A DNA stretch of 64,000 bases from Podarcis vaucheri (Eukaryota). Position numbers and translations under genes: made by a program. The notes below the pieces were generated by a model that had not been told where the DNA came from, made no database searches, and saw nothing but the letters and a program-made list of their open reading frames with translations. The DNA lies in assembly GCA_965113315.1 (NCBI GenBank), contig OZ220371.1, one strand, 5' to 3'. Numbering within the stretch: position 1 is the stretch's first letter; every line of letters begins with the position of its first letter. This document shows, piece after piece, positions 27,291-48,868 of the stretch.

Positions 27291-27660
27291 TGTTATGTAC
27301 TGAGTTGAATAGGATCCAAACTGCAGCAGTCTGGTTGGTCCTAGAACAATAGGATCCAAATTGCAGCAGTCTGATTGGTCCTAGAACAATAGGATTCAGA
27401 ATGCAGCAGTCTGATTGGTCCAAGAACAATGCAGCAGTATGATTGGTTGGCAGGAACCACCCAATCATGCTCCAAATATAAGTGAATCAACAACCTGATT
27501 GGCTTACAGTAGAATTCCAGAATTAACCAATCATGGGCAGCCCATTGTGTAAAGAATGTATATAAAGCAGATACTTTGAGGGGACTATTATTCATTCCTC
27601 CTCACCACTATGAGCTGAATAAAGAGCATGAAATCACTTTGCGACTCTGAGTATATTTCA
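27291..27660 (+). mobile_element. Solo LTR (370 bp)
   Basis: TG...CA ends, perfect 5-bp TSD ACAAG (27286-27290 / 27661-27665), TATATAAAG at 27559, AATAAA at 27618, and 40-bp tandem repeats in the U3-like part. Confidence 0.88.
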
Positions 27661-28766
27661 ACAAGGAAAATTGTTATTTCAAAAAACCTTTAGAGGTTGA
27701 GTGTGTTGTTGTGACTGTTGTGACATCTTCGCAGATGAAGGGGTGAACATTTTTTAAAAGAGAGTACTAATCTTAAAAAAGAGGGGGTGCTAAAGTAACA
27801 ACCAACTAAAAATAGGAAGAAACAAGTAAATGAGTAATAGTCATCTCCAGTGTGGCAAGAGCATGTCCTTTTTTAGACACGTGCCTTGCATTCATTCAGC
27901 CTTGGACAACACCTTGAGGATTTGAGAGAAAGTGTTTATTAGCCTTGGAGAAAATGGTGATAAAGGTAGCTCTGTACTGACAGTATTAGAAAACAAAAAT
28001 GTTTATGTGTGTGCTAATGCCAGTGTGGAAAAATTATGTATTAAAAAATACTGGAATAGAATATTAAGCCAAGATGCTTGAAACTCATATGTGGGCCTAA
28101 AAGATGTAAAATCCAAATGATTTAGATCCAGTGATGCTAAGCGCTGAAGTCGATGTTACAGTCTGGATGGGTAGCAGCTGCTAACTTTTTTTCCACATCT
28201 GCCTCCTTAAGAAATGTATGATGTGAGATCATTGTATTCAGCTTTCCTCCATCCTGCTCCAGTTTATTGGCTGCTGTGTGCAAGCTAAAGCCAAAATTGT
28301 GTAAAGACGGGGCACAGTGGGTTCAATGGCAGGTGGGATTTCTGAAGCCTTTTCCCCCAGATGCCCACCCAATTTCTGCTCCCATTTTATTTTATTTTAT
28401 TTTGCAAAGCATGTAAAGTTGAATGTGCACAAGTTAAATGTGTGTAAGTTGTGAGTTACTTGTATTTGCATAAGTGGTGCAAGATCTTTCCACCTACAAT
28501 GCTGGGCAAAACCCTATGTCAATATTTATAAATATTTATCAGATAAAATGGTTTTCTTTTCAGGAATATTTTAACATTCAACACTAGCAACAAGAAGAGC
28601 TCGTTTTAAAATGTTTTCCTAAGTCTAGTTCTTGCAGTTTCAAACCACAGTTCCTGAATTGCAAGGAAATAAGTGTGAATTCAGTATTTCAAGATTTTCA
28701 TGCCACAGTTCACATTTTGAAATATACTGTCAATATAACCAGACATATACAGCTGGAATGCACATA

Positions 28767-30057
28767 CCGTATTTTTCGCCCCATAAGACGCACTTTTTCC
28801 CCTCCAAAAATGAAGGGGAAATCGGGGTGCGTCTTATGGGGCGAATGCCTGCAAGCCTCGCGCGCCCGGCAGGAGGTCCCACCGGGTGCGCGAGGCTTGG
28901 GGCGGCAGCCTGTCGCCCGAAGCACGAGGAGCCCTCTGGAGGGCTCCCCCTGCTTCGGGCGAGTGTCTGCAAGCCTCGCGCACCCGGCAAGAGGTCCCAC
29001 GGGGTGCGCGAGGCTTGGGGCGGCAGCGGACTGCTTGCGCGCACCGAGAAGCTTGGGGCGGGCTGAGCTCAGCTGGCCCCAAGCTTCTGGGTGCGCGCAA
29101 GCAGTCCGCTGCCGCCCCAAGCCTCGCGCACCCGGCGGGACCTCCTGCCAGGTGCGGGAGGCTTGGGGCGGCAGCGGACTGCTTGCCGGCATGCAGAAGC
29201 TTGGCGCGCGCTGAGCTCAGCACTCCCCAAGCTTCTAGGTGCGCGCAAGCAGTCCACTGCCGCCCCAAGCCTCGCGCACCCAGCGGGACCTCCTGCCAGG
29301 TGCGGGAGGCTTGGGGCGGCAGCGGACTGCTTGCTGGCATGCAGAAGCTTGGCGCGCGCTGAGCTCAGCACTCCCCAAGCTTCTAGGTGCGCGCAAGCAG
29401 TCCGCTGCCGCCCCAAGCCTCGCGCACCCAGCGAGACCTCCTGCCAGGTGCGGGAGGCTTGGGGCGGCAGCGGACTGCTTGCCGGCATGCAGAAGCTTGG
29501 CGCGCGCTGAGCTCAGCACGCCCCAAGCTTCTAGGTGCGCGCAAGCAGTCCGCTGCCGCCCCAAGCCTCGCGCACCCAGCGGGACCTCCTGCCAGGTGCG
29601 GGAGGCTTGGGGCGGCAGCGGACTGCTTGCCGGCATGCAGAAGCTTGGCGCGCGCTGAGCTCAGCACTCCCCAAGCTTCTAGGTGCGCGCAAGCAGTCCA
29701 CTGCCGCCCCAAGCCTTGCGCACCCGGCGGGACCTCCTGCCGGGTGCGGGAGGCTTGGGGCGGCAGCGGACTGCTTGCCGGCACGCAGAAGCTTGGGGCG
29801 CGCTGACCTCAGCTTGCCCCAAGCTTCTGGATTAGCGCAGGGGTCCGCTAGCCCTGGGAGAGGCGCCCGGCTCTCCCACGCTAGCGGAGACCTTGCCAGC
29901 ACGCAGAAGCTTGGGGCGCGCTGAGCTCCGCACGCCCCAAGCTCCTGGTGTAGCGCAGCGTACCTGGGGGGGAAATAATTTTTTTTTCCTTTATTTCCCC
30001 CCCTAAAATCTAGGTGCGTCTTATGGGCCAGTGCGTCTTATGGGGCGAAAAATACGG
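28767..30057. mobile_element. Young Tc2/pogo-like non-autonomous DNA transposon
   Basis: Perfect 27-bp TIRs CCGTATTTTTCGCCCCATAAGACGCAC, TA TSDs, subterminal GGTGCGTCTTATGGG copies, no transposase ORF. Confidence 0.92.
28845..29960. repeat. GC-rich 148-bp tandem array of palindromic units inside the MITE
   Basis: GAGCTC symmetry axes at 29065, 29213, 29361, 29509 and 29657 (period 148). ORF-track peptides recur every 148 bp and are near-identical on both strands. Confidence 0.95.
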
Positions 30058-32587
30058 TACATTTTGTATTCAAAATGTGGTATACAAACTGGTATACCAC
30101 ATTTAGAATACCCAAAATGTTTTGTGTATTCCAGCTGACTGTTTACATTATAACAATATTTGGGTAAGAACTGAGCTGGTTGAGAGTAAAAGGACCACCA
30201 GAGGGCAGTACATATGAACTCCTGCTCCTTGACCACTGGAAGCCGAGTGAGGCCTGTTTGCCCTACGCAGTGAATGTACTGAAAGTGTATTGTACACTGG
30301 GTTTGTTTTAAATTGCCACAGGACATAATTTTCAAAGAGGGACAGTTTGCTGTCACTCTTTCTGCTTCAAAGGAAGGGGGAAATACAACAGCATGAAAGT
30401 GCAGGACAATGCAAAGCAAAAGGCTTTTGGCTACTGTTAAACACTCACAGTGGTTTCCATAAGAACTTGACTTCTGAAAGGAAGCAGATCACAGGTCTTT
30501 TCTCTGAAAAAAACCCCCCATTAGTTACATTGATATCTCAAGAAGCTTGAGGTGATGTATGTGGTTCTCCCGCTGCCCATTTTATTATCTACACAACAAC
30601 CCTAGAAGGTAGCCGAAGGTGGATAATAGTGATTGGCTCAAGGCCCCCCACTGAGATGATTAGGGATTTGAAACTGGGTCTCCCCATACCTAGTCCATAT
30701 ATTACATTGCCTTGCAGGAGCTAATATTTATTCTGATTATGAAACTTACAAGGCAACTGACAGGCTGCAATCTGATGCTCACCTGCCTATGAGTGAGGCC
30801 CCTTGGACTCAGTGGAGCTTATTTCTGAGCTGTCATGTATCAGATTCTAGTGTCAGTTTTTCTTTCTGAACAGTCTGTTGCATTTAGTAGCTTTCGGAAG
30901 CTGTAACATACTGAATATCGTGTGCAACTTGGTTCTGTGCCTGCCTAAGTCCTGCAATATTGGGCATCTGTGCCGCATACATAAACTTGGACATAAACCC
31001 CAGTGAACTCAATGGGACTGATTTTTGAGTAGACAGACAGAATTGCGATGCTTGAATAAGATCCCCTGTTGACAATAGCATTGTGTGAACATTCCATCGA
31101 TTTCCCTGAATAAGATGGGTGAGGTTCTTTTTTCTTTAAAAAAAGATCCTTTGCTTGTCAGCACATTCCCCACACTCCCTGCTTCCTGTCCCTGAAGTAA
31201 ATAAATGAGAAGAGACTTGAGGAAAGGGCCAGCGCCAAACGCAGCTTGGCACATTAATTCATTGCATAAGCACTATTTTCTATGTCACTTTTTATTGTGT
31301 GTAATTAATTCAACACGAATTTTATTAGAAACAATGAAAGTGTCCATGGGCCAAATAACGGCGCTGGATCACTTCCTCGCCATTGTATGAGTTAGTTGCG
31401 AAGTTTGGTGAGAGGATTAATGCCTCCTGTAATTCAGGGGGTTGCCCTTTGATTTTAACGGCCCTTTATATACGATTTGGCTTGGCACCTTATTCTTTTG
31501 GGAACCTTGAAACAGTTTTGGTTTCTACATGGCTTTATTGGTTTTATATTCCTAGCACTCAGTTCCCTAACCGTCAGCAAGTCTCATTGTCTAGCTCTAA
31601 TCTAGAGCTTGTGCTACAGTGACCTTTTGTAAATTTGTTTTTCCATTTGATTTTATATTGAGATGAGCAGTTTGGCATGTATAGTGCCTTTAATAGTAGA
31701 CAGCTGTTCTTATTGTCCTTTCTCAGTATCTTTTATTCACCAGGTGAAGTCTGTCATGTTCAGCTGTACTTTTAACACAGTGTGATTCTTACCACTGTTG
31801 CAGTTTTATTCTGATTTTAGACGGCTGTTTTTTTAATATTGTTTTAGATGGCTTATTTATTGCATTATGATTGATTTTTTAATTTCTGTAAGCTGCCTTG
31901 AGTACCTGTTTGTTTATCTAGCTGAGTAAAAAGATTTATATACCACCCTTCAGTTCAGAAATTTCCAGGTTGGTTTTCCATAACCTGTCAAACGGTAAAA
32001 GAGCATAAAAGAAAAATCACTGCAAAAATAACTAATATGCCAGATGTTTAAAAAAGTCTAGGCAATGAAAAACAATGGGCTACAATCCTATGCACAGTGA
32101 CTTGGGAGAAAGTCTCATTGAATTCAATGAGCCCTACTTCTGAAAGGATTGCGCTGCTGAATACATGAATACAAATGCTAGGTGAGCATTCCTGGGGAGA
32201 GGTTTTCCTAAAAGTGGCATCACAACTGACAAGACCCTCTCCTCCCATTGCTATGTAGCACACTTCAGAAGAAGAAAATCCCTCGGACCCACAGGGCTTT
32301 CATGAGCTTTTATAGTTCTGGATCCTGGCCTGAATGAATGAATATGTGGTGGTATATCCCTCAATCTTATTTATCTTGCTTTCAGAACTAAAATAAGTAA
32401 TATTAACTATAAGGGATAGTTTTGGTGTGTTACGTTCCAGGCTTTTCAAGTGAAAAGAGCAACAGCAGCAGTGAAAGAAACATGTCTTTATCCTATCTGA
32501 AAGGTCAGACACAATTTTAATTTTTTTTTTATTTTTATTAAATTTTATCCCATCCTTCCTTCCAAAGGAACCCAGGGTGGCATGTAT

Positions 32588-45473: not shown

Positions 45474-45941
45474 GAAGCAGTGATCTGTGGGCCTGACAAG
45501 ATGTCTCGGGAGGTGTGCTGTCTCCCCGGGGCTAAGATCCAAGATGTAACTGAACGACTGCAAGGAATCATAAAACCCACTGACGAATACCCCTTCCTCT
45601 TGGTTCATGTGGGAACCAATGACACTGCAAGCAATAGCCTCCAGAAGATCAAAAGAGACTACGAGGCTCTCGGCAGGAAATTGAAGCAACTAAATGCACA
45701 AATTGTCATCTCGTCTGTCCTCCCAGTTGAACAACGTGGCCCAGGGAGAGAGGGGAAAATAGTGGAAGTGAACAGCTGGCTTCGCAAATGGTGTAAACAG
45801 GAACGGTTTGGATTCTTAGATCACGGACTGCAGTTTCTTGAAGATGGACTTCTGGCAAGTGATGGGCTGCACCTCACAACGGTTGGGAGAAATGTTTTTG
45901 CCAAAAATCTCAGAAACCTCATCAGGAGGGCTTTAAACTGA
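45474..45941 (+). CDS. CR1 ORF1, C-terminal SGNH esterase-like domain (5'-truncated, no native start)
   Basis: VCCLPGA, VHVGTND and DGLHL motifs. Ends ...LIRRALN*. Confidence 0.85.
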
Positions 45942-45946
45942 CTAAT

Positions 45947-48868
45947 GTGGGGGAGGGAGACAGTGCTCCTGAAGGTAGGAGTCTATCAATTAATGAAGAT
46001 GATCATCCAAATGTCATAGACCAAATGGAGCAAACAGCACGCGGACCTAGTGGAGGGAGGAAAAAATCCTTAAATAAGAGACACGGGGGAATGATTAATG
46101 GACTTCAATGTCTGTACACTAATGCGCAAAGCATGGGAAATAAACAAGATGAGCTTGAGCTCTTGGTACAGCAAACTAAATATGACATAATAGGCATCAC
46201 TGAAACCTGGTGGGATAAGTCCCACGATTGGAATGTAATAATGGAGGGATACAATCTATTTCAGAGAAACAGACCAGACAAGAAAGGAGGAGGAGTGGCG
46301 TTATATGTCAGGGGTGTGTATACCTGTGAAGAGATCCAAGATTTAGAACCTCAAAGCCAAAGTGAGAGCATTTGGGTCAAAATTCAGGGAGAGAAGAATA
46401 ACAGAGACCTCATTGTGGGAGTTTACTATAGATCCCCAAGCCAAACGGAGGACATAGATGATGCCTTCCTGGAACAGATGGCCAAGCATGCAAAAGGAAG
46501 GGAGATAGTAGTAATGGGGGACTTCAATTACCCGGATATTTGTTGGACGTCAAACTCAGCCAAGAGCATAAGGTCAAACAGATTCCTCACTGGCCTTGCA
46601 GACAACTTCATTGTCCAGAAAGTGGGAGAAGCAACAAGAGGAACAGCCATTTTAGACCTGGTCCTAACCAATGTTGATGACCTGGTTAGTGGGGTAGATG
46701 TGGAAGGATCATTAGGCGCGAGTGATCATGCTCTTCTGAAGTTTACTATACAGCGGAAAGTAGCAGCCAAGCATACTAGGACTCAATTTCTTGACTTTAA
46801 GAAAGCCGACTTCATAAAACTTAGGGAAGTGCTGGGTGAGATCCCATGGACAGCAATACTAAAAGGAAAGGGAGTTCATGATGGCTGGGAGTTTGTTAAG
46901 ACGGAGATAGTAAAAGCACAACGTCAGGCAATACCAATGAGACGAAAACATGGAAGGTGCCTAAAGAAACCAGGGTGGCTATCTAAAGAACTTTTAACTG
47001 AATTAAGATTAAAAAAGGATGTGTACAAAAAATGGAAAAGGGGGGAAACCACCAAAGAGGAATTCAAACAAATAGCCAGCACGTGTAGACACAAAGTCAG
47101 AAAAGCTAAAGCACAGAATGAACTCAGGCTTGCTAGAGAGGTTAAAAGCAACAAAAAAGGCTTTTATGGGTATGTTCGTAGCAAAAGGAAGAACAAAGAA
47201 ACAGTGGGGTCACTCAGAGGAGAAGATGGTGAAATGCAAACAGGGGACACAGAAAGGGCTGAACTCCTCAATGCCTTCTTTGCCTCAGTCTTCTCCGATA
47301 AAGAAGACAATGCCCGACCTGAAGAATTTGAAGCAAATGATTCAGCAAAGGAAACACAGCCCAGAATAACTAAGGAGATAGTACAAGAATATTTGGCTAG
47401 ATTAGATGTATTCAAGTCTCCAGGGCCAGATGAACTGCATCCAAGAGTATTAAAAGAACTGGCAGATGTGATCTCAGAACCACTGGCAGTCATCTTTGAG
47501 AATTCCTGGAGAACAGGCGAAGTCCCGGCAGACTGGAGGAGGGCAAATGTTGTCCCTATTTTCAAAAAGGGGAAAAGAGAGGACCCAAATAATTACCGCC
47601 CAGTCAGTCTGACATCAATAGCAGGGAAGATTCTGGAGCAGATCATTAAGCAAACAGTCTGTGAGCACCTAGAAAGGAATGCTGTGATCACCAATAGTCA
47701 GCATGGATTTCTGAAAAATAAGTCATGTCAGACTAACCTGATCTCGTTTTTTGACAGAATTACAAGCCTGGTAGATGAAGGGAATGCAGTGGATGTAGCC
47801 TACCTTGATTTCAGCAAAGCATTTGACAAGGTGCCCCATGCTATTCTTGTAAAGAAGCTGGTAAAATGCGGTCTTGACTATGCTACCACTCAGTGGATTT
47901 GTAACTGGCTGACTGACCGAACCCAAAGGGTGCTCATCAATGGTTCCTCTTCATCCTGGAGAAGAGTGACTAGTGGGGTGCCACAGGGTTCTGTCTTGGG
48001 CCCGGTCTTATTCAACATCTTTATCAACGACTTGGATGATGGACTCAAGGGCATCCTGATCAAATTTGCAGATGACACCAAACTGGGAGGGGTGGCTAAC
48101 ACCCCAGAGGACAGGATCACACTTCAAAACGACCTTGACAGATTAGAGAACTGGGCAAAAACAAACAAGATGAATTTTAACAGGGAGAAATGTAAAGTAT
48201 TGCACTTGGGCAAAAAAAATGAGAGGCACAAATACAAGATGGGTGACACCTGGCTTGAGAGCAGTACATGTGAAAAGGATCTAGGAGTCTTGGTTGACCA
48301 CAAACTTGACATGAGCCAACAGTGTGACGCGGCAGCTAAAAAAGCCAATGCAATTCTGGGCTGCATCAATAGGAGTATAGCATCTAGATCAAGGGAAGTA
48401 ATAGTGCCACTGTATTCTGCTCTGGTCAGACCACACCTGGAGTACTGTGTCCAGTTCTGGGCACCACAATTCAAGAAGGACACTGACAAACTGGAACGTG
48501 TCCAGAAGAGGGCAACCAAAATGGTCAAAGGCCTGGAAACGATGCCTTATGAGGAACGGCTAAGGGAGCTGGGCATGTTTAGCCTGGAGAAGAGGAGGTT
48601 AAGGGGTGATATGATAGCCATGTTCAAATATATAAAAGGATGTCACATAGAGGAGGGAGAAAGGTTGTTTTCTACTGCTCCAGAGAAGCGGACACGGAGC
48701 AATGGATCCAAACTACAAGAAAGAAGATTCCACCTAAACATTAGGAAGAACTTCCTGACAGTAAGAGCTGTTCGACAGTGGAATTTGCTGCCAAGGAGTG
48801 TGGTGGAGTCTCCTACTTTGGAGGTCTTTAAGCAGAGGCTTGACAACCATATGTCAGGAGTGCTCTGA
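45947..48868 (+). CDS. CR1 ORF2: APE endonuclease plus reverse transcriptase (973 aa from GTG; first in-frame ATG at 46025)
   Basis: APE motifs YTNAQS, GITETW, GDFN, LDLVL, SDH. RT motifs [28 protein letters not shown]. No stops or frameshifts. Confidence 0.97.

What the first reader, a model, noticed from the sequence alone, without database searches (positions are those of the whole stretch)
28767..30057. MITE carrying a tandem array made entirely of palindromes
Seen: between perfect 27-bp TIRs lie about 7 units of 148 bp (about 5 near-identical, degenerate at the edges). Each unit has two dyad axes: GCAAGCAGTCCGCTGCCGCCCCAAGCCTC...GAGGCTTGGGGCGGCAGCGGACTGCTTGC, and AGAAGCTTGG...CTGAGCTCAG...CCAAGCTTCT. 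The array is therefore ~74-bp monomers in alternating orientation and reads almost the same on both strands. It is very CpG-dense with little decay. Inference: a monomer was inverted by template switching and the dimer then amplified, so this is a satellite forming inside a mobile element. It could extrude cruciforms, yield long dsRNA (small-RNA or ADAR substrate) and act as a mobile CpG island ~21 kb upstream of the JADE1 promoter.
Basis: partly seen in the sequence, partly recalled or inferred. Interest (0 to 1): 0.7.

Follow-up and report, generated by a model that had tools for sequence, protein, structure and literature searches.

The report
Lizard mini-transposon with mirror-image array
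This is one recently inserted copy of a small, gene-less jumping element whose middle is a chain of DNA hairpins; its mirror-image repeat likely arose when copying doubled back on two hairpins and was then duplicated, and sister copies in the genome preserve the likely steps, but it is not a satellite.

Summary
The array is real. Window 28767-30057 is a 1291-bp non-autonomous Passer (pogo) element with perfect 28-bp TIRs and a TA duplication. It is young: the empty site stands in 3 of 4 DNA runs laid, one of them under the same species label. The interior is modular: left end-A(XA)i-L-B(l a L B)j(CB)k-D-B-right end, where A, X, B, C and D are GC-rich hairpins. This copy has i=1, j=5, k=0, not 7 units. 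Across 78 full copies j runs from 0 to 11. 'Satellite' is not: only 120 exact units exist genome-wide (about 175 estimated), and all 20 array-picked loci lie between TIRs. CpG transitions run about 5-fold above background, which points to germline methylation rather than a functional CpG island. Four RNA runs of a relative showed no reads on the array. Tandem-repeat MITEs are known; the new parts are a head-to-head unit with a preserved birth series, occasional loop flips, and sister subfamilies that carry other hairpin arrays.

The parts
28765..28766 (.). Left TA target-site duplication
   Evidence: Sequence. The empty-site joint skips 1293 nt, that is 1291 plus TA.
28767..28794 (+). Left TIR, 28 bp, begins CCGTA (Passer type)
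   Evidence: Perfect match to the right TIR. 23 of 28 identical, compared by eye, to the Anolis Passer TIR in Table S1 of PMC9976928.
28767..28851 (+). Left end with an internal inverted copy of the TIR core, shared with transposase-coding L117
   Evidence: 82 nt at 93.9% to L117. Its first 39 nt occur exactly 204 times in the genome.
28852..28899 (+). Hairpin A, first copy (48 nt, forward loop)
28910..28969 (+). Hairpin X; A-X is a 118-bp unit that forms arrays in other copies
   Evidence: Axis at 28937. Up to 8 X per copy (L187).
28970..29097 (+). A (forward) - linker L - hairpin B: the segment that was template-switched
29098..29837 (+). Five 148-bp units (inverted linker l, loop-inverted hairpin a, linker L, hairpin B)
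   Evidence: TRF; module tiling; dyads every 74 nt
29841..29955 (+). Hairpin D and terminal hairpin B (fixed right-hand modules; boundaries approximate)
29966..30057 (-). Right end with a duplicated TIR core and the 28-bp right TIR (30030-30057)
   Evidence: 92 nt at 90.2% to L117
30058..30059 (.). Right TA target-site duplication
   Evidence: TA/TA flanks in 76 of 78 full copies.

Best explanation
This is a young non-autonomous Passer (pogo-superfamily) DNA transposon whose interior is a chain of GC-rich hairpins, and its 148-bp mirror-image array likely arose by a fold-back double template switch followed by ordinary unit duplication. Shown: TIRs, TA duplication, an empty site in other samples, relatives with shared ends that code a BrkDBD+HTH_Tc5+DD35D transposase, precursor copies without the inversion, and copies with 1 to 11 units. 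Inferred step 1: synthesis through A-L-B folded back in B's right arm, copied L and A backwards, then returned to the template at A's other arm, giving A-L-B-l-a-L-B, a small inverted triplication. Inferred step 2: the new 148-bp direct repeat was gained and lost in whole units by slippage or unequal exchange, plausibly during gap repair after excision (not tested). Inferred step 3: Passer transposase in trans moved each variant as a cassette. The copy near JADE1 is most likely a methylated, neutral passenger.
For: Passer ends and transposase. Empty site in 3 of 4 DNA runs (X3, X4, X12), not in X1, which may be the source sample. Family: 204 exact left ends; 64 of 100 examined places are this subfamily; 78 full copies, 57 architectures, 434-2179 bp; j=0 in 33 of 61 end-picked copies. 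A between l and L is loop-inverted in 132 of 134 cases. L058 against precursor L054: 13 mismatches under the four-point switch model (1 in the inverted piece) against 38 for the best plain duplication; switch points fall in the arms of B and A; 4 of 5 precursors give 13-30 against 38-53, the fifth was out of register. Units differ by 4.8 nt within arrays and 9.3 nt between arrays; only 3 variants are both private to one copy and repeated, so most variation is inherited with the cassette. CpG transitions 0.0257 per site against 0.0054 (other G/C) and 0.0042 (A/T) in 59 copies. Median divergence 0.8% (73 copies, 237 nt; biased low by the choice of exact left ends).
Against: No intact transposase with exactly these ends was found. 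L117 has the closest ends but an in-frame stop, and it looks chimeric; L119, with a 451-aa open frame, has ends only 79-81% alike. 104 of the 204 left-end places were not listed and not examined. An inverted insertion by inter-copy recombination could leave the same final sequence, so template switching is inferred from junction geometry. A permutation test for variants mirrored across the two arms was not significant (11 observed, mean 8.6, 559 of 2000 shuffles as high). Short-read contigs do not span the array, so five units at this locus rests on the assembly alone.
Confidence: 0.8

Rival explanations
1. A satellite is being born: the 148-mer is expanding in place and will escape, or has escaped, the element.
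For: Unit number varies from 0 to 11. Higher-order repeats exist, such as a 431-bp block in L043. Units are more alike within than between arrays. MITE-to-satellite routes are published (PMC12628747 section 4).
Against: 120 exact L-B-l matches in 1.6 Gb; recall is 95 of 140 in fetched copies, so about 175 units, which matches the number expected from elements alone (about 130 copies x 1.26). 20 of 20 array-picked loci have both TIRs. Two unrelated 118-bp units in the same family reach 8 and 11 copies too.
Confidence: 0.08
2. The array grows by repeated fold-back (rolling-hairpin-like) synthesis rather than one inversion followed by direct duplication.
For: Flip isomers exist: forward A inside arrays in 2 of 134 cases, inverted a after X in 2 of 58, a B loop in two reverse-complement forms (8 and 6 of 120 units) and a perfected form (2), and larger inverted segments in L039 and L176.
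Against: Repeated fold-back predicts mixed loop orientations, but 132 of 134 a hairpins and most B loops share one orientation. The mirror-variant test was not significant. Flips can also come from recombination between inverted repeats.
Confidence: 0.12
3. The hairpins are kept by selection because they help the element transpose, be copied in gap repair, or act as a promoter or small-RNA source.
For: 27 of 32 full sister-subfamily elements also hold arrays (periods 88-90 or 117-119), and 9 hand-picked units all fold at z -5.9 to -12.2. A-X is homologous to the hairpin pair at the 5' end of L117 and L174 (scores 92.5 and 122 against shuffle maxima 56.5 and 66.5), with pairing kept despite divergence.
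Against: Template switching alone can create and keep stems (PMC8794818 abstract). CpG decay points to methylation. No RNA reads on the array in 4 runs of a relative. No Rfam family reached its gathering score in 133 weak matches. The shortest full copy (434 bp) has no array.
Confidence: 0.2
4. The array is an assembly artefact.
For: No read or contig spanning the array was available.
Against: Units differ by 1-4 nt at positions shared with other loci; 45 of 78 copies at other loci carry the unit; array sequence is present in contigs of 4 of 4 DNA runs.
Confidence: 0.02

Closest known systems
Passer (PS) family of the pogo superfamily, squamate members (PMC7386202; PMC9976928 and its Table S1)
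   Same: [quoted passage not shown]
   Different: This element has no ORF for a transposase and carries hairpin arrays. The passages and table rows I saw describe autonomous elements and no such MITE.
miDNA4 of Xenopus tropicalis (Tc1/mariner MITE with an internal satellite monomer; seen only through reviews PMC12628747 and PMC9659126)
   Same: An ITm-group MITE carrying one or a variable number of internal repeat units.
   Different: miDNA4 is proposed to have captured an existing repeat and to lead to classical satellite. Here the unit was made from the element's own hairpins, is head-to-head, and no free satellite was found.
DTC84 of Donax trunculus (PMC3879986)
   Same: The MITE is a cassette for a variable number of about 150-160-bp units, with variants at fixed positions and a palindrome in each unit.
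   Different: DTC84 has one 12-nt palindrome per unit, all units in one orientation, an AA duplication and 11-bp inverted motifs. Here the whole unit is two dyads and the family has three interchangeable arrays.
Small inverted triplications (SIT; PMC13334657) and short-range template-switch mutations (PMC8794818)
   Same: DUP/INV/DUP geometry of about the same size, seeded at short palindromes by two template switches.
   Different: SITs were described as rare, unstable events in FEN1/rad27-deficient yeast and cancers. Here one was inherited in the germ line, spread by transposition and amplified in tandem.
Xstir/Xmix of Xenopus laevis and the Angel fold-back model (through review PMC12628747 section 4)
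   Same: Stem-loop formation during replication is invoked to make tandem repeats from MITE interiors.
   Different: Different superfamily and model: joining of two neighbouring elements, or duplication of a whole element.

Membership tests
Passer (pogo) non-autonomous derivative | TA target-site duplication | tested here: met
   76 of 78 full copies TA/TA; empty site with a single TA
Passer (pogo) non-autonomous derivative | Short TIR (under 30 bp) with CCGTA end | tested here: met
   28-bp perfect TIR; CCGTA/CCGTA in the 5 squamate rows shown from Table S1
Passer (pogo) non-autonomous derivative | Shares ends with an element coding BrkDBD/HTH_Tnp_Tc5 and DD35D transposase | tested here: met
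   L117 ends 94% and 90% alike; D-D spacing 35 in 4 of 5 two-ended coding elements (motif not found in L130); Pfam domains in L118 (all over cut-off) and L117 (BrkDBD 22.4 bits, just under 23.4)
Passer (pogo) non-autonomous derivative | Mobilised in trans by the family's transposase | not testable with these tools
   Needs a cell assay; no intact coder with identical ends was found
MITE | Non-coding, TIR-flanked, many near-identical copies | tested here: met
   About 130 copies with an exact left end (64 of 100 examined, 204 in all); median divergence 0.8%
MITE | Small, uniform size (under about 600-800 bp; recalled criterion) | tested here: not met
   434-2179 bp, 57 architectures in 78 copies; it is a tandem-repeat-bearing MITE-like element
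Satellite DNA | Long arrays of many tandem monomers, free of transposon ends | tested here: not met
   120 exact units genome-wide; at most 11 per locus; 20 of 20 array-picked loci between TIRs; unassembled heterochromatin not examined
Small inverted triplication | Direct-inverted-direct geometry with junctions at short inverted repeats | tested here: met
   L058 against precursors: switch points at element positions 308-319, 283-294 (B arms) and 203-221, 233-251 (A arms)
Functional CpG island | GC over 50% and CpG o/e over 0.6 | tested here: met
Functional CpG island | Unmethylated in the germ line (no excess CpG decay) | tested here: not met
   Indirect, family-level: CpG transitions about 5 times other sites; no methylation data
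Existing Dfam/Repbase family | Consensus entry holding this array | not testable with these tools
   No such library is on hand

The most novel reading that the evidence does not exclude
Lizard Passer mini-elements are a clade of hairpin factories: each subfamily keeps a pair of GC-rich hairpins that repeatedly seeds template switches during gap repair after excision, producing inverted triplications, flipped loops and new repeat units, and the hairpins persist because they raise the element's copy rate. The family would then be a natural, dated series for testing how palindromic minisatellites are born in a vertebrate germ line.
Probability: 0.25. Interest if true: 0.65.

Novelty: new variant of a known kind. 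Interest (0 to 1): 0.4.

Why it matters
How the first units of a tandem array arise inside a mobile element is usually guessed from end products; the DTC84 paper says little is known about the initial duplications. This family keeps precursor, one-step inverted triplication and 2- to 11-unit products side by side, under about 1% divergence, with presence/absence alleles between samples. That makes it a convenient natural test of fold-back template switching in a vertebrate germ line, a mechanism so far dissected mostly in yeast and E. coli (PMC13334657). The single copy near JADE1 has no evidence of function.

Tried and rejected
DDE_1 search of the genome: none of the 30 fetched loci (of 150 matches) carried these TIRs; they look like other pogo families. 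A transposase flag on L143 was a chance motif in flanking DNA. L026 (2766 bp) looked autonomous but is a truncated left end plus an inverted sister MITE. The first module tiling failed through a faulty fuzzy-match setting and was redone. Mirror-variant permutation test: not significant. Centre-anchored B versus L184 hairpin comparison was out of register and is not used; the A versus L174 count (13 same, 7 compensatory, 4 unpaired) is affected by an indel and is only a hint. Homology of A-X to C-B, and of either to the 89-bp subfamily unit, did not exceed shuffles. Rfam: 133 matches, generic hairpin hits, none at a gathering score. Sequencing-run search: no RNA holder listed. Contig depths are not copy numbers and were used only for presence. 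NCBIfam and a first PDB search did not name the JADE exons; a second PDB search did. Earlier scan findings: nothing by sequence or words, one unrelated Penelope note by place. Literature: nine full-text searches listed no paper on a squamate Passer/Tc2 MITE with palindromic arrays; most subscription journals, Repbase Reports and Dfam are outside the library.

Full report
Observation. The element spans 28767-30057 (1291 bp) between perfect 28-bp inverted repeats flanked by TA on both sides. TRF finds a 148-bp period over 28970-29828, 5.8 copies, 94% matches. Ten dyad axes follow at 74-nt steps, each with 60-69 of 74 positions paired; same-orientation monomers are 97.9% alike, opposite ones 81.8%. 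The array folds far better than shuffles.

Class. The host is likely a lacertid lizard: the start of coding element L119 resembles, by eye, the Podarcis row in Table S1 of the Passer paper. A BrkDBD search led to a decayed element with a CCGTA end, and its protein found 24 matches. Among them L117 (2606 bp) shares 82 nt at 94% and 92 nt at 90% with the MITE's ends. L117 and L118 code BrkDBD, HTH_Tnp_Tc5 and DDE_1, with 35 residues between the last two aspartates in 4 of 5 two-ended elements. These features define Passer (PMC7386202, passages; PMC9976928, passages and five supplement rows). L117 has an in-frame stop and an ordinary Passer right end nested inside a MITE-like end, and no second copy of its head-plus-body appeared among 40 scored candidates. 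It may be a chimera rather than the parent, so the direction of transfer of its hairpin head is open.

Age. Contigs of 3 of 4 DNA runs (X3, X4, X12; two studies) join 28764 to 30058, skipping 1293 nt; X4 bears the same organism label as X1, whose contigs run into both element ends and which may be the source sample. Shared parts diverge 0.8% from consensus (median, 73 copies; 1.3% in array-picked copies).

Family anatomy. The first 39 nt occur exactly 204 times. Of the 100 listed places 64 are this subfamily and 36 are sister subfamilies. I fetched 116 element loci (40 by left end, 20 by array, 56 more by left end); with the window copy they gave 78 full copies of this subfamily, 32 full sisters and 7 without a matching right end in the stretch held. 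The 78 follow one grammar: left end, A(XA)i, linker L, B(l a L B)j, (CB)k, D, B, right end. i reaches 8, j 11 and k 11. The window copy is A X A L B (l a L B)5 D B. j is 0 in 33 of 61 end-picked copies. Two other copies of 1290-1291 bp differ from it at 44 and 56 positions and have a different order of unit variants, so equal length is not shared descent.

Mechanism. In array units the A hairpin has its loop reversed (132 of 134), and the right arm of B is the reverse complement of its left arm rather than the ancestral right arm. L058 (A X A L B l a L B C b D B) was fitted to five precursor copies (A X A L B C B D B) with a four-point switch model: 13 mismatches against L054, 1 of them in the inverted piece, compared with 38 for the best plain 148-nt duplication; the switch points lie in the arms of B and of A (a fifth precursor was out of register). 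This is the geometry of a small inverted triplication, for which fold-back of a 3' flap and a second switch is proposed (PMC13334657, abstract and discussion). The event creates a 148-bp direct repeat, which then changes in number. Units differ by 4.8 nt within arrays and 9.3 nt between them, but only 3 variants are private to one copy and repeated (128 units in 45 copies), so arrays mostly travel as cassettes, as in DTC84 (PMC3879986, passages). Further flips occur: forward A inside two arrays, two reverse-complement forms of a B loop (8 and 6 of 120 units), and larger inverted segments in L039 and L176. A permutation test for mirrored variants across arms was not significant, so I claim occasional flips and not continuous arm-to-arm correction. 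A link to gap repair after excision is inference from general knowledge of cut-and-paste elements.

Satellite test. A pattern needing both linkers around a B hairpin matches 120 places genome-wide. It recovers 95 of 140 units in fetched copies, giving about 175 units, close to the roughly 165 expected from about 130 copies at 1.26 units each. All 20 array-picked loci have both TIRs. There is no sign of a free satellite in the assembly; unassembled DNA was not seen.

Regulatory claims. JADE1 lies downstream on the + strand (first coding exon near 62.3 kb; a later exon matches PDB Jade-1 best), with CpG-rich DNA from about 50.8 kb. The element meets the sequence definition of a CpG island, but rare transitions run at 0.0257 per CpG site against 0.0054 and 0.0042 elsewhere (59 copies), the usual mark of germline methylation. 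In four RNA runs of a related organism (6-12% of each read), reads covered the element's ends, from other family members, and none covered 29010-29657. That organism lacks this insertion in the one DNA run laid, and GC-rich hairpins may be lost in library making, so this is weak. Cruciform extrusion is untested; perfect central arms are 6 bp at B and absent at A.

Wider pattern. Sister subfamilies with the same ends carry other hairpin arrays: 27 of 32 have periods of 88-90 or 117-119 bp, and nine hand-picked units fold at z -5.9 to -12.2. A-X is homologous to the hairpin pair of L174 and of L117's head, and C-B to that of L184, above 300 base shuffles each (these shuffles do not keep hairpin character). 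Template switching can create and keep stems without selection (PMC8794818, abstract and opening), which is the simpler reading.

Comparison and verdict. MITEs with internal tandem repeats are known (miDNA4, Xstir, DTC84; PMC12628747 passages and most of section 4, PMC9659126 passages; the original Xenopus papers were not read). Nine literature searches listed no description of this family, but Dfam and Repbase could not be checked. It is a new variant of a known kind: a Passer MITE whose repeat unit was born by inverted triplication between its own hairpins, with the series preserved. Interest 0.4.

Noticed in passing
L023 (G000:C25:9065944-9070944), inside the element: A roughly 350-bp insertion with its own short TIRs and an 8-bp target duplication sits in a B hairpin; it looks like a nested hAT-type MITE (class from recalled features).
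   Followed up: no
L117 (G000:C18:27590439-27593747): A Passer transposase body with MITE-like ends: the hairpin head matches sister MITEs L174 and L176, and a normal Passer right end is nested inside a MITE-like right end. Possibly a gap-repair chimera.
   Followed up: partly
L176 (G000:C19:14486495-14489995): A sister-subfamily copy of 1970 bp with a 119-bp array of 8.5 units, a chimeric join to the 89-bp subfamily, and a large internal inverted segment: an independent inversion event.
   Followed up: partly
L025 and L026 (C19, about 79 kb apart); L181-L183 (C25, near the contig start): Copies share the same left flank, pointing to local or subtelomeric duplications; L026 and L181-L183 lack their own right end.
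   Followed up: no
window 29027-29041-type junctions (linker L into B variant, e.g. 29175-29189): A 15-nt word at the L-B junction also appears, by eye, in the 5' region of the Protobothrops Passer row of Table S1 in PMC9976928; it may be a conserved subterminal motif or chance.
   Followed up: no
window 45863-48868 (+): A 1001-aa open frame with endonuclease and reverse-transcriptase motifs, likely a young CR1-type LINE ORF2 (class recalled, not tested).
   Followed up: no
G000, many contigs: Many pogo-type DDE_1 matches lie in open frames of 575 or 631 aa with equal scores, suggesting another recently active family, probably Tigger.
   Followed up: no
window 28340-28460 and 27308-27430: A short high-copy repeat just left of the element (high contig depth) and a 40-bp tandem repeat of 3.1 copies.
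   Followed up: no
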